From a virus (lineage: Duplodnaviria; Heunggongvirae; Uroviricota; Caudoviricetes): a stretch of DNA of 4,162 nucleotides. The notes beneath the pieces were generated by a model. It was given only the letters and a program-made list of their open reading frames with translations. It did no database searches and was not told the origin of the DNA. A program made the translations under genes and the position numbers. Shown here one piece after another: positions 1 through 4,162 of the stretch; position 1 is the first letter of the stretch; each line of letters begins with the position of its first letter. The stretch lies in IMG/VR virus record IMGVR_UViG_2734482575_000003, one strand, 5' to 3'.

Positions 1-434
1 TACCGGACTCCTCCTGCGATCCCTTCTGATACTGTCATCAGCATTACGTCATCCTCCGTCATGTCCGCCACATCCGGGGAAGCGGGGATAACTTCATTCC
101 CGTCCGGGCCAAAGCGGACACCTCCGGCAAGCCCTGCCGCTTTCTGCATCAGCACATCATCTTCAGGCTCTTCGTCAGCCTCGCGCCGGTTCAGCAGACT
201 GAAATCCAGCGGATGCATCTCCGGATCGCTGAAAAACAGGCTGAGCACGGTGTACGTCAGCCCGGAAAAGTGCATATCCAGCAGAACATCATGAAAATAA
301 TGGGTACTGTAAAAGCGGTGCCAGTCGGCATACTCCGTGGATGACATCCCGGCAAGCATGGCGCGCCAGTCGGGTCGCCCCATCTCACGCGCCAGTTTCA
401 GGGCAAAACTCAGCTCACCGTCGAACACTTTCCC
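1..434 (-). CDS. T: Tail assembly chaperone G-T fusion, -1 frameshifted T portion; 3' end truncated by the window start (about 2 codons plus stop missing)
   Basis: Hand translation of the minus strand from the heptamer at 434-428 in the -1 frame gives GKVFDGELSFALKLAREMGRPDWRAMLAGMSSTEYADWHRFYSTHYFHDVLLDMHFSGLTYTVLSLFFSDPEMHPLDFSLLNRREADEEPEDDVLMQKAAGLAGGVRFGPDGNEVIPASPDVADMTEDDVMLMTVSEGIAGGVR with no stop through position 3. This matches my recollection of lambda gpT. It is absent from the ORF track because it has no start codon of its own. Confidence 0.85.
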
Positions 435-832
435 GCAGAAACAGGCTCTGCAGGCCCGGCGTCCTCTGCCTGTTCAGGAGCATCATTCACCACAAACTCA
501 TACATACCGGACAGCCGGTACACCACGTTTTCAGCATGAGAAATTGCCTCTGTGGGCCAGGTGGTAAGCACTTCCTGCTCAATCTGTTTAACGGCTTCAT
601 TCATGGACGGNNNNNNNNNNNNNNNNNNNNNNNNNNNNNNNNNNNNNNNNNNNNNNNNNNNNNNNNNNNNNNNNNNNNNNNNNNNNNNNNNNNNNNNNNN
701 NNNNNNNNNNNNNNNNNNNNNNNNNNNNNNNNNNNNNNNNNNNNNNNNNNNNNNNNNNNNNNNNNNNNNNNNNNNNNNNNNNNNNNNNNNNNNNNNNNNN
801 NNNNNNNNNNNNNNNNNNNNNNNNNNNNNNNN
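410..832 (-). CDS. G: Tail assembly chaperone G; start lies in the N block and is estimated assuming a 140-aa protein
   Basis: The visible 66 C-terminal residues (PSMNEAVKQIEQEVLTTWPTEAISHAENVVYRLSGMYEFVVNDAPEQAEDAGPAEPVSAGKCSTVS) match lambda gpG, ending in TGA at 412-410. The N-terminal extension shown in the ORF track (410..1045) is an artefact of reading through Ns. Confidence 0.75.
   Translation of the reverse strand, partial: XXXXXXXXXXXXXXXXXXXXXXXXXXXXXXXXXXXXXXXXXXXXXXXXXXXXXXXXXXXXXXXXXXXXXXXXXXPSMNEAVKQIEQEVLTTWPTEAISHAENVVYRLSGMYEFVVNDAPEQAEDAGPAEPVSAGKCSTVS
428..434 (-). promoter_or_regulatory. Programmed -1 ribosomal frameshift slippery heptamer G GGA AAG (G to G-T)
   Basis: Plus strand 428-434 is ctttccc, so the minus strand reads GGGAAAG, positioned as codons Gly-Lys 8 codons before the G stop (TGA at 412-410). 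The -1 frame downstream is open to the window edge and encodes the T homologue. Confidence 0.8.
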
Positions 833-972
833 NNNNNNNNNNNNNNNNNNNNNNNNNNNNNNNNNNNNNNNNNNNNNNNNNNNNNNNNNNNNNNNNNNNN
901 NNNNNNNNNNNNNNNNNNNNNNNNNNNNNNNNNNNNNNNNNNNNNNNNNNNNNNNNNNNNNNNNNNNNNNNN
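611..972. other. Masked or unsequenced block (362 N) covering the V 3' end, the V-G intergenic region and the G 5' end
   Basis: Continuous run of n characters in the sequence. Confidence 1.
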
Positions 973-1607
973 ATACCACTGACCGACACGGTGGCTTTTG
1001 TTTTATCCGCAGACACCGCACGGAAGCTCTTGTCGGTTGCGCCATCCGGCTGGAATGCCACGGTCAGCGTGGTGCTCTGCCCTTTCACTACGGAAGCACT
1101 GGCGGGTGTCACCGTCATGCCGGTCGTCGCCGTCACCGTGCTGCGATCTTCTGCCATCGACGGACGTCCCACATTGGTGACCTTCACCGTGCGGGTAATC
1201 ACCTCCTTCGCCGTCACCGCCTTACCGATACTGCTGACCCAGCCACGGAACACATCGACCGTGCCGTTCGGGAAGCGGATTTTATAGGCACGGGTATCAC
1301 CTTCATTAAACCACGCCAGCAGCGCCTGCTGCCCCTGCTCTCCGGGCATCCACGCCAGCGTGAAGCTGGTATCTCCGGCAGATTTCTGCCCCTGCCCGGT
1401 CGCAGTCCAGTCTGCATCTTCATCATCGAGATAGCTGTCGTCATAGGACTCAGCGGTCAGTTCGCCGGGCGTCAGGTCTTTAACTTTTGCCAGACGCGAC
1501 CAGTCAACGTCTGAAAGCGGGTTCGCATAAGGGTCACCGCTCCCCTTATAAACCCACAGGGTGGTCCCGGCACCTTTCACCGGCATTGTAGGATTTGGTA
1601 CAGGCAT
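867..1607 (-). CDS. V: Major tail tube protein V; 3' end lies in the N block and is estimated assuming 246 aa
   Basis: The minus-strand ATG at 1607-1605 is preceded by GAGGA that overlaps the U stop. Translation [50 protein letters not shown]... matches lambda gpV for the 211 visible codons, including the start of the C-terminal Ig-like (Big_2) region. The ORF-track start at 1637 ([10 protein letters not shown]) is an upstream extension that overlaps U. Confidence 0.85.
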
Positions 1608-1614
1608 AGCGTCC

Positions 1615-2010
1615 TCACATTTCATAGATAATGACATAAGTCAGATCGGCTGAACTCCACAGGCCCGCATCATCGTCGCGCCGGTAGTCATAGCCGCTGG
1701 CCACCATACTGGTGATCAAATCTGACAGTGCCGGGATATCGCTCATCACAGGATAAATCCGGGACTCCATCCACGAATCCAGCTCTGAATCCGGCACCTG
1801 AGCAGGCAGGAAAACTTCAATATGCAGCTCCGCCTGCCAGGTATCGCTGTCCAGCTCTTCGCCCGTGTATTCAGCGCCGGTGAGATAAACGGCAATTGCC
1901 GGAAAATCTTCCTCATCAAAAACAGCGGGGCGACCATCAAAAAGCGTCGCCCCGGTGTCATGCTTCTCCAGTGCATCCAGTACGGCTGCACGGAGTTCAG
2001 TATGTTTCAT
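1615..2010 (-). CDS. U: Tail terminator protein U (131 aa)
   Basis: Complete [39 protein letters not shown]...LTYVIIYEM matches lambda gpU in length and sequence. ATG at 2010-2008 overlaps the Z stop TGA at 2009-2007. Confidence 0.92.
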
Positions 2011-2978: not shown

Positions 2979-3377
2979 TTATTGCATTCTGGCCAGGCCG
3001 CGCTCTGTCATTTCGGCTGCCACACCGGCAGAGACACGAAACGCCGTTCCCGGCAGCACAAATGCCACAGGTTTATCCCGCGTGGCGTGAAGTGCATCAG
3101 TATGCAGCGTCACCAGTGCCACGACCGTGACCAGTTCAGCCGTATCCTGAATCACGGTATCCGGCTGCGCTGATACCACCTCATTTTCATGCCCGGTCAG
3201 CACATTTTCCCGGCTGAGAGGGGTGTCCTGACCGGCAGTTTCATCCGTGTCATCAAGCTCTTCTTCCAGCTCTGCCACACGAAGCGCCAGTTCTTCTTTC
3301 GTTCCCGTCAAACTGACATCGCGGTTCAATTGCTCACCCAGCTCCTGAAGACGGGCAATCAGTTCATCTTTCGTCAT
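2979..3377 (-). CDS. FI: FI, DNA-packaging / head completion accessory protein (132 aa)
   Basis: The minus-strand ATG at 3377-3375 is preceded by GGAGGAG and followed by MTKDELIARLQELGEQLNRDVSLTGTKEELALRVAELEEELDD...AAEMTERGLARMQ, ending in TAA at 2981-2979. Length and sequence match lambda gpFI. The ORF-track start at 3416 is a 13-codon upstream extension lying inside the E-FI hairpin. Confidence 0.9.
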   Translation of the reverse strand: MTKDELIARLQELGEQLNRDVSLTGTKEELALRVAELEEELDDTDETAGQDTPLSRENVLTGHENEVVSAQPDTVIQDTAELVTVVALVTLHTDALHATRDKPVAFVLPGTAFRVSAGVAAEMTERGLARMQ

Positions 3378-3418: not shown

Positions 3419-4162
3419 TTACGCCAGTTGAACGGACACGAACTCATCAGGATCAGCCAGCAGCATCAGCGGTGCTGACTGAATCATGGTGAACTCACGC
3501 GCCGGATCGCCGGTGGTCACCCAGTTTTTCGGGTAACGGGCAGAAGCGTTAATGCCTTCGCGCTGTGCGTCCGCATCCTGAATGCAGCCATAGGTGCGCA
3601 GACCGCGAGCCTGAGTGTTCCCCAGCACCATCGTGTTGTCCGGCAGGAAGTTCTTTTTGACGCCGTTTTCCACGTACTGTCCGGAATACACGACGATGGC
3701 CACATCGCCATACATTCCCTTATAGGACACCGCTTTGCCCAGGTCTTTTACCGCTGTCTCCAGCTCGGAATGAGAGCCGCGACGGGTATCCAGCTTCTCC
3801 TTGACGGCTTTGAAGGAACGGAACAGCGCCCAGCCTTTCGGGTCAAACACGATGATATTCACCACACCGCTGGCGTTCAGCGCGTAGGCTTCGATATCGT
3901 CGGTCGGGTCATACGTGGACTTGTCACGCTTGCTCCACTCCGTGACGCCGGACTGTGTGATGTTGTTCGCCGCACTGCGGCCCATATCCACCTCAACCGG
4001 ATCGAAGGCTTCACCGGTCATGGTGTATTTGCCCTTGAGCACGGCAGAAACTGCCTGCATCTCTTCGACCTGAGCAATGGCCAGCTCTTCGTCACGCATG
4101 TTCTGCATGATGATGCGACGGCGGCGGTAAGCCGGGTCCGCCAGATTCTGCGGATCTTCATC
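3419..4162 (-). CDS. E: Major capsid protein E, C-terminal 247 codons; the 5' end lies beyond the window end
   Basis: The minus-strand frame is open from the window edge (DEDPQNLADPAYRRRRIIMQNMRDEELAIAQVEEMQ...) to TAA at 3421-3419, ending ...MLLADPDEFVSVQLA. This matches lambda gpE (HK97-fold major capsid protein). The ORF-track start at 4108 is an internal Met. Confidence 0.93.
   Translation of the reverse strand, partial: DEDPQNLADPAYRRRRIIMQNMRDEELAIAQVEEMQAVSAVLKGKYTMTGEAFDPVEVDMGRSAANNITQSGVTEWSKRDKSTYDPTDDIEAYALNASGVVNIIVFDPKGWALFRSFKAVKEKLDTRRGSHSELETAVKDLGKAVSYKGMYGDVAIVVYSGQYVENGVKKNFLPDNTMVLGNTQARGLRTYGCIQDADAQREGINASARYPKNWVTTGDPAREFTMIQSAPLMLLADPDEFVSVQLA

What the first reader, a model, noticed from the sequence alone, without database searches (positions are those of the whole stretch)
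410..434. Intact G-T programmed -1 frameshift site; T frame open to the window edge
The heptamer GGGAAAG lies at the expected position near the 3' end of G. The -1 frame continues without a stop for about 142 codons and encodes a gpT-like sequence. In lambda this frameshift sets a low, fixed G to G-T ratio needed for tail assembly around the tape measure protein. The intact heptamer and open frame argue that the tail module is functional rather than decayed.
Basis: partly seen in the sequence, partly recalled or inferred. Interest (0 to 1): 0.45.

Follow-up and report, generated by a model that had tools for sequence, protein, structure and literature searches.

The report
Lambda G-T tail chaperone frameshift site
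This is the well-known ribosomal frameshift site of phage lambda's tail-assembly chaperone genes G and T, carried unchanged in a lambda-like phage or prophage, so it is real but ordinary.

Summary
On the minus strand, GGGAAAG lies at 434..428 in phase G_GGA_AAG with gene G. The G stop (TGA) is at 412..410, five codons after the AAG. The -1 frame from base 428 stays open for 142 codons to the window edge.

The readable window is about 97.5% identical to phage lambda 6417-10542 (genes E, FI, FII, Z, U, V, G, T). No substitution falls in 410-451. The -1 frame product matches lambda gpT at 141 of 142 residues (TIGR01715, PF06223). The G tail matches at 64 of 66 (TIGR01674, PF06894).

All 80 close IMG/VR relatives keep GGGAAAG. 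Diverged relatives keep it or carry another site ending in A_AAG, at the same position.

This is the lambda G/GT programmed -1 frameshift (Levin 1993; Xu 2004, 2013, 2014). It is already known and already annotated in many records.

Caveats:
- G codons 1-74 and the G start are hidden in an N run, so the window alone cannot show that G is intact.
- The window ends 2 codons before the T stop.
- An intact site does not prove a working tail module.

A predicted stem-loop 7 nt downstream has only marginal support. An earlier study had already judged it indistinguishable from background.

The parts
428..434 (-). Slippery heptamer G_GGA_AAG, with Gly-Lys in the P and A sites
   Evidence: It is the only copy in the window and is in phase with G. 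It corresponds to lambda 10109-10115. All 80 close relatives keep it.
410..412 (-). G stop codon TGA, five sense codons after the AAG
   Evidence: The 5-codon spacing is kept in 248 of 250 related loci.
413..610 (-). Readable C-terminal 66 codons of G, the tail assembly chaperone
   Evidence: 64/66 identical to lambda gpG residues 75-140. PF06894 E=2.6e-17. TIGR01674 E=7.8e-25.
413..473 (-). 61-nt stretch in which both the G frame and the T frame are open
   Evidence: the T frame opens at rc 3690 and the G stop is at rc 3751. This stretch holds exactly one in-phase canonical heptamer.
3..428 (-). T segment in the -1 frame: 142 of the 144 codons. It is made only as the C-terminal part of gpGT.
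   Evidence: No stop. 141/142 identical to lambda gpT, with D70E the one change. PF06223 E=1.9e-14. TIGR01715 E=7.4e-55. No start codon preceded by a Shine-Dalgarno sequence.
350..420 (-). Predicted 3' stem-loop beginning 7 nt after the heptamer (outer stem 420..413 with 357..350, enclosing a GC-rich hairpin). Its function is not established.
   Evidence: MFE -38.8 kcal/mol, z=-2.19. Pair counts on 57 sequences. Synonymous-codon shuffles give z from -1.2 to -2.1, against controls of -1.25 to +0.07. An earlier analysis rated it at background level (PMC4066793 Table S8).
611..972 (.). N run hiding the V C-terminus, the V-G intergenic region, the G ribosome-binding site and start, and G codons 1-74
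   Evidence: The homologous stretch is 343 nt in lambda and in the relatives.
8..15 (-). Shine-Dalgarno sequence AGGAGGAG of the tape-measure gene H. Window base 1 is the A of the H ATG.
   Evidence: Sequence. Lambda H starts at 10542, which corresponds to window base 1. That it acts as an SD is inferred.

Best explanation
The site is the programmed -1 ribosomal frameshift signal of the lambda-type tail assembly chaperone genes G and T, in a phage or prophage whose head-tail module is about 97.5% identical to lambda.

Most ribosomes read G to its UGA stop and make gpG (140 aa in lambda). On G_GGA_AAG a small fraction slip back one base. The P-site tRNA-Gly re-pairs from GGA to GGG, and the A-site tRNA-Lys (mnm5s2UUU) re-pairs from AAG to AAA. 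These ribosomes then read GTG TTC GAC... in the T frame and make the fusion gpGT (about 279 aa). The fraction is about 3-4% in lambda.

The G part of gpG and gpGT coats the tape-measure protein gpH. The T part recruits the major tail protein gpV. The roughly 30:1 ratio fixed by the slip rate is needed for tail assembly, and neither protein stays in the virion.

Shown here: the heptamer, its phase, the G stop, the open T frame, homology to G and T, synteny, and conservation. Inferred from lambda experiments: that slippage happens here, its rate, and the proteins' roles.
For: - Heptamer, phase, G stop and open -1 frame.
- The window aligns with lambda 6417-10542 with 88 substitutions in 3508 readable bases and none in 410-451. 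Lambda annotation of that stretch is E, FI, FII, Z, U, V, G, T, H.
- gpT 141/142 and gpG 64/66 identical to lambda. NCBIfam equivalogs TIGR01674 and TIGR01715 and Pfam PF06894 and PF06223 all score above their cut-offs.
- Public records annotate this exact stretch as tail assembly chaperone G/GT.
- T has no start codon preceded by a Shine-Dalgarno sequence. In relatives the codon at the junction is GTC, GCA or GCC, so it cannot initiate.
- Conservation: 80/80 close relatives keep GGGAAAG. Across 250 loci every site ends in A_AAG: GGGAAAG 134, GGAAAAG 82, AAAAAAG 32, others 2. The G stop lies 5 codons later in 248 of them.
- Literature: PMC5009743, PMC3296357, PMC7618472. G_GGA_AAG is among the most shift-prone heptamers in E. 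coli (PMC4066793).
Against: - There is no direct expression data for this copy.
- The G start and codons 1-74 are masked. The mask is 19 nt longer than the homologous stretch in all relatives, so an interrupted G cannot be excluded from the window alone.
- The T stop and H lie outside the window.
- The heptamer by itself is not statistically unusual.
Confidence: 0.94

Rival explanations
1. Same frameshift, but its rate is set partly by a conserved 3' RNA stem-loop that starts about 7 nt after the heptamer. It would act as a modest stimulator or tuner, rather than the heptamer acting alone.
For: - A structure is predicted at the canonical spacing, with MFE z=-2.19.
- On 57 distinct sequences 87.8% of cells pair, against 24-45% when the partners are slid. 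Pair 16:84 is AU 30, GC 24, CG 2, GU 1, with none unpaired.
- Synonymous-codon shuffles give z of about -2 in the window, HK225 and phi80.
- G_GGA_AAG gives only 0.28% in a reporter without stimulators and 3.8% with moderate stimulators (PMC4066793). Lambda's frameshift fraction is about 4% (PMC3296357).
Against: - The covariation rests on two or three evolutionary events.
- The structure was derived from one of the sequences it was tested on.
- Control windows inside T reach z=-1.25, and Gifsy-1 gives +0.5.
- Synonymous-site variability shows no clear trough beyond the G overlap.
- Sharma et al. found the gpG-cluster hairpin in only 51% of genes, with ddG/nt 0.020+-0.095, below their 0.09 threshold.
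Confidence: 0.2
2. The site is intact in sequence but sits in a defective, cryptic prophage. It would then be a relic that no longer contributes to virion production.
For: - Lambdoid tail modules are present in 4221 of 5426 complete E. coli genomes, often in several copies per genome, and many such prophages are known to be defective (general knowledge).
- G codons 1-74 are masked, and the N runs are 19 and 17 nt too long.
Against: - No readable gene from E to T has a stop or frameshift.
- Substitutions against lambda are mostly synonymous in E, Z and V.
- Near-identical contigs of 18-58 kb carry intact G, T, H, M and L.
Confidence: 0.12
3. T is translated on its own from an internal start (the GTG at 428 or the ATG at 383, as some records annotate it), with no frameshift.
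For: GenBank records annotate a separate T CDS starting at the GTG or at Met16.
Against: - None of the four candidate starts has a Shine-Dalgarno-like sequence 4-12 nt upstream.
- The GTG is replaced by GTC, GCA or GCC in relatives that keep the slip site.
- Lambda experiments detect gpG and gpGT (PMC3296357; PMC5009743).
Confidence: 0.02
4. The frame change arises from RNA polymerase slippage at the A run, or from ribosome collision at the UGA stop, rather than from simple tandem tRNA slippage.
For: A stalled ribosome at a UGA stop can stimulate -1 shifting on G_GGA_AAG in the trailing ribosome (PMC6815119).
Against: - The A run is only 3 nt, too short for transcriptional slippage (general knowledge).
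- Collision stimulation peaks at 8-10 codons A-site to A-site. Here the spacing is 6 codons.
Confidence: 0.02

Closest known systems
Bacteriophage lambda genes G and T, the gpG/gpGT programmed -1 frameshift (Levin, Hendrix & Casjens 1993; Xu, Hendrix & Duda 2013, 2014)
   Same: - Identical heptamer, phase and distance to the stop, and identical flanking sequence over 410-451.
- gpT 141/142 and gpG 64/66 identical.
- Same gene order, V-G-T-H.
   Different: Only 8 point substitutions in the readable 610 bases: G N117D and T122A, T D70E, and the rest synonymous. The G N-terminus cannot be read here.
The conserved G-T-like frameshift in tail assembly chaperone genes of long-tailed dsDNA phages (Xu, Hendrix & Duda 2004), for example N15, HK225, phi80, Gifsy-1 and Stx phages
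   Same: - Two overlapping ORFs between the major tail gene and the tape-measure gene.
- A slip site a few codons before the stop of the upstream ORF.
- A downstream ORF with no start of its own.
   Different: Those relatives use A_AAA_AAG or the non-canonical G_GAA_AAG, and their T proteins are 37-72% identical to this one. This copy is of the lambda type proper.
E. coli dnaX and the IS3/IS911 family -1 frameshift sites (A_AAA_AAG)
   Same: The same slippage chemistry: the single E. coli tRNA-Lys (mnm5s2UUU) leaves AAG for AAA (PMC5009743; PMC4066793).
   Different: Those sites rely on strong stimulators (an upstream SD and a downstream hairpin or pseudoknot) and reach tens of percent. The lambda site works at a few percent with no proven stimulator.

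Membership tests
Lambda-type tail assembly chaperone G/GT programmed -1 frameshift | Two overlapping ORFs located between the major tail protein gene and the tape-measure gene | tested here: met
   V lies upstream (1607..973, partly masked), followed by G and T. Window base 1 is the first base of the H ATG by alignment to lambda. Near-identical contig L098 has V, G, T and H (853 aa) in order.
Lambda-type tail assembly chaperone G/GT programmed -1 frameshift | A slippery X_XXY_YYZ heptamer in phase with the upstream ORF, close to its 3' end | tested here: met
   G_GGA_AAG at 434..428, five codons before the TGA stop.
Lambda-type tail assembly chaperone G/GT programmed -1 frameshift | A long open -1 frame from the slip site, with no independent translation start | tested here: met
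   142 codons are open to the window edge. There is no start preceded by an SD. The junction codon is not a start codon in relatives.
Lambda-type tail assembly chaperone G/GT programmed -1 frameshift | Sequence homology of the two parts to gpG and gpT | tested here: met
   TIGR01674 scores 87.4 bits (cut-off 74.45) and TIGR01715 scores 184 bits (cut-off 77.35). PF06894 and PF06223 also match. Identity to lambda is 97% for G and 99% for T.
Lambda-type tail assembly chaperone G/GT programmed -1 frameshift | Complete upstream ORF G with its own start | tested here: inconclusive
   G codons 1-74 and the start lie in the N run 611-972. They are intact in contigs that differ at 1 of 3508 bases. The N run is 19 nt longer than the homologous stretch.
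Lambda-type tail assembly chaperone G/GT programmed -1 frameshift | A trans-frame fusion protein made at a low fixed rate (about 3-4%) and required for tail assembly | not testable with these tools
   This is established for lambda only (PMC5009743; PMC3296357). It would need a reporter assay, mass spectrometry or genetics.
Stimulator-dependent bacterial -1 PRF signals (IS3/IS911/dnaX type) | A conserved downstream hairpin or pseudoknot, or an upstream SD, that is more structured than the local background | tested here: inconclusive
   A stem-loop is predicted with marginal statistics. No SD-like sequence lies upstream (sequence; Table S4 'SD N'). Sharma et al. report ddG/nt 0.020, below their threshold. 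No Rfam family matches.

The most novel reading that the evidence does not exclude
The lambda-type G-T site may not be free of stimulators. A stem-loop starting about 7 nt downstream (window 420..350, minus strand) is kept in the lambda, Stx-phage, HK225/N15 and phi80 lineages, with a compensatory G-C / A-U / C-G switch at one pair. It could raise slippage from the roughly 0.3% that the bare heptamer gives to the roughly 4% that tail assembly needs.
Probability: 0.2. Interest if true: 0.35.

Novelty: already known. Interest (0 to 1): 0.08.

Why it matters
The finding has little novelty value. It is one more copy of one of the classic recoding signals, and many GenBank and RefSeq records already annotate it. 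Related tail modules occur in 4221 of 5426 complete E. coli genomes.

Its practical use is for annotation. T should be joined to G as a frameshift product, not called as a separate gene from the GTG or from Met16. An intact site is one weak indicator among many that a prophage tail module has not decayed.

One open point remains. The bare heptamer gives about ten times less frameshifting in reporters than lambda achieves, so the contribution of the surrounding sequence is still not explained.

Tried and rejected
- **Source contig.** An exact 70-mer from the distinctive V allele found nothing in genome contigs. The same pattern found 9 IMG/VR contigs, four of which match the window at 3507 of 3508 readable bases.
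- **Rfam.** No family reached its gathering score on the window or on L098.
- **Solved structures.** The search found nothing for G. For T it found only spurious low-complexity matches to WD40 designs over residues 101-120.
- **Ribosome collision at the UGA stop as a stimulator.** Rejected because the spacing is 6 codons, against an optimum of 8-10.
- **Independent initiation of T.** Rejected.
- **Excess synonymous constraint around the predicted stem-loop.** There is no clear trough relative to other parts of T.
- **Primary papers.** Levin 1993 and Xu 2013 are not held in the library. Their content is cited through reviews and, where marked, from memory.
- **First translation attempt.** One search used the zero frame by mistake. 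One search is the correct -1 frame.

Full report
**1. What is in the window**

The minus strand carries a lambda late-operon segment. It holds the end of E (4108..3419), FI, FII, Z, U (2010..1615), V, G and T. Two N runs (611-972 and 2469-2760) hide the V/G and FII/Z junctions.

The readable 3508 bases align without gaps to lambda NC_001416 6417-10542, with 88 substitutions. Lambda's annotation of that stretch is E, FI, FII, Z, U, V, G, T, with H starting at 10542, which corresponds to window base 1.

**2. The observation**

GGGAAAG occurs once, at 434..428 on the minus strand. The G frame reads ...PVSAGKCSTVS*, as GCG GGA AAG TGT TCG ACG GTG AGC TGA. The heptamer is therefore phased G_GGA_AAG, and the stop is at 412..410.

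The -1 frame that starts at base 428 (GTG TTC GAC...) runs for 142 codons to base 3 without a stop.

The heptamer alone would not be significant. The expected count is 0.40, and 68 of 200 shuffles contain one. Two other in-phase canonical heptamers exist, in Z at 2289 and in V at 1555. Their -1 frames close after 15 and 25 codons. The median open -1 frame in these genes is 9 codons.

A long -1 ORF is not special in itself. The -1 frame at the end of Z is simply gene U. What sets T apart is that it has no start codon preceded by a Shine-Dalgarno sequence.

**3. Identity**

- The -1 product matches lambda gpT at 141 of 142 residues, with D70E the one change.
- The readable G tail matches lambda gpG residues 75-140 at 64 of 66.
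- Both parts pass the curated cut-offs of the NCBIfam equivalogs TIGR01674 (phage tail assembly chaperone G) and TIGR01715 (tail assembly protein T), and of Pfam PF06894 and PF06223.
- No substitution against lambda lies between 410 and 451.
- Phage 434, lambda, HK629, HK630 and DE3 match the G-T stretch at 98.7-99.3%, and their records annotate it as G, T or GT with H following.
- Related DNA is present in 4221 of 5426 complete E. coli genomes.

**4. Comparative evidence**

All 80 close IMG/VR relatives keep GGGAAAG, although neighbouring bases vary.

I examined 250 loci in all, gathered with three T queries plus annotated phages. Every site at this position ends in A_AAG:

| Site | Loci |
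|---|---|
| G_GGA_AAG | 134 |
| G_GAA_AAG | 82 |
| A_AAA_AAG | 32 |
| Single variants | 2 |

The G stop lies five codons later in 248 of the 250. Where G_GGA_AAG is replaced, the replacement is another shift-prone site (A_AAA_AAG), which argues that slipperiness itself is under selection.

In these relatives the codon at the junction is GTC, GCA or GCC, so T cannot start there.

**5. Mechanism**

The slippage model and the biology come from lambda work and were not tested here.

Lambda uses low-level -1 frameshifting to make gpG and gpGT at about 30:1. The G part binds the tape-measure protein gpH. [quoted passage not shown] Neither protein is in the virion (PMC5009743). About 96% of ribosomes stay in frame (PMC3296357).

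The single E. coli tRNA-Lys (mnm5s2UUU) is shift-prone on AAG. Loss of its thiolation raises the frameshift rate and lowers phage yield (PMC3296357; PMC7618472; PMC5009743).

G_GGA_AAG is among the three most efficient heptamers in E. coli (PMC4066793).

**6. Is there a stimulator?**

RNAfold predicts a stem whose 5' arm starts 7 nt after the heptamer (window 420..413 pairing with 357..350). It encloses a GC-rich hairpin, with z=-2.19 against dinucleotide shuffles.

On 57 distinct sequences (A3), 87.8% of cells pair, against 24-45% when the partners are slid. Pair 16:84 switches cleanly among A-U, G-C and C-G. That represents only two or three evolutionary events, and the structure was derived from a member of the alignment.

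Shuffles that keep the protein sequence give these z-scores:

| Sequence | z |
|---|---|
| Window | -2.0 |
| Lambda | -1.5 |
| HK225 | -2.1 |
| phi80 | -2.1 |
| Stx1 phage | -1.2 |
| Gifsy-1 | +0.5 |
| Control windows inside T | -1.1, -1.25, +0.07 |

Synonymous-site diversity shows no marked trough beyond the G overlap.

Sharma et al. 2014 had already examined this gene cluster (G_GGA_AAG_4, gpG). They found a hairpin in 51% of genes, with a 7-nt spacer and ddG/nt of 0.020+-0.095. That is below their 0.09 relevance threshold (PMC4066793 Tables S4 and S8). [quoted passage not shown]

The same Sharma study measured 0.28% for the bare heptamer and 3.8% with moderate stimulators. Lambda's roughly 4% therefore leaves room for a contribution from the surrounding sequence. 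I rate a functional 3' structure at about 0.2.

Collision-induced shifting at the UGA stop is unlikely. The A-site to A-site spacing is 6 codons, against an optimum of 8-10 (PMC6815119).

**7. Functional or decayed?**

No readable gene is interrupted. Substitutions against lambda run about 54 synonymous to 31 non-synonymous, and FI and U carry most of the amino-acid changes.

Four IMG/VR contigs differ from the window at 1 of 3508 readable bases. They carry G (140 aa), T (144 aa), H (853 aa), M and L intact.

However, G codons 1-74 and the G start are masked in the window. Both N runs are also longer than the homologous stretches in lambda and in all relatives checked, 362 against 343 and 292 against 275. 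This may be an artefact of masking. If the extra bases are real and lie in coding sequence, they would break a gene.

**8. Verdict**

The feature is the lambda G/GT programmed -1 frameshift. It is already known and already annotated in public records, so interest is low.

Noticed in passing
window 611-972 and 2469-2760: The two N runs (362 and 292 nt) are 19 and 17 nt longer than the homologous stretches (343 and 275 nt) in lambda, in 47/47 IMG/VR relatives (first run only), and in four contigs that otherwise differ at 1 of 3508 bases. Both runs span a gene junction (V/G and FII/Z), so frames across them cannot be checked. Either the masking does not preserve length or the source has unseen insertions.
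   Followed up: partly
window 350-420 (minus strand); alignment A3: A predicted stem-loop starts 7 nt 3' of the heptamer, and one pair covaries cleanly (A-U 30, G-C 24, C-G 2). The statistics are marginal, and Sharma et al. 2014 rated the same cluster's hairpin as background.
   Followed up: yes
L086, L087, L088, L089 and L099-L178 (site at about 683-701 of L086-L089): HK225, N15-like phages, phi80, Gifsy-1 and cdtI carry G_GAA_AAG at the homologous position. The P-site codon cannot re-pair fully (GAA to GGA), so these sites work effectively as A_AAG tetramer sites. The G stop is still 5 codons downstream in most of them.
   Followed up: partly
literature: PMC4066793 supplementary motif table against lambda's rate: The bare G_GGA_AAG heptamer gives 0.28% -1 frameshifting in an E. 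coli reporter, about ten times below the roughly 4% reported for lambda G-T. The contribution of the lambda context is unexplained.
   Followed up: partly
window 2979-3377 (FI) and 1089-1134 (V): FI is the gene most diverged from lambda (10 non-synonymous and 10 synonymous changes, including R11Q/S12E). A dense cluster of substitutions lies in V codons about 158-175. Both suggest mosaic exchange within an otherwise lambda-like module.
   Followed up: no
window 8-15 and base 1 (minus strand): The Shine-Dalgarno sequence AGGAGGAG of the tape-measure gene H lies inside the last codons of T. The window ends on the A of the H ATG, so the T stop (2 codons further) and all of H are missing.
   Followed up: yes
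window 2289 (Z) and 1555 (V), minus strand: The in-phase canonical heptamers A_AAG_GGG and G_GGU_UUA occur inside Z and V. Their -1 frames stop after 15 and 25 codons, so they are probably incidental.
   Followed up: yes
L082 (PhiR12_5), L085, L087 and NC_001416 annotations: Public records annotate T inconsistently: from the GTG at the slip site, from an internal Met, or as a joined GT product. Several records therefore under-annotate the frameshift.
   Followed up: no
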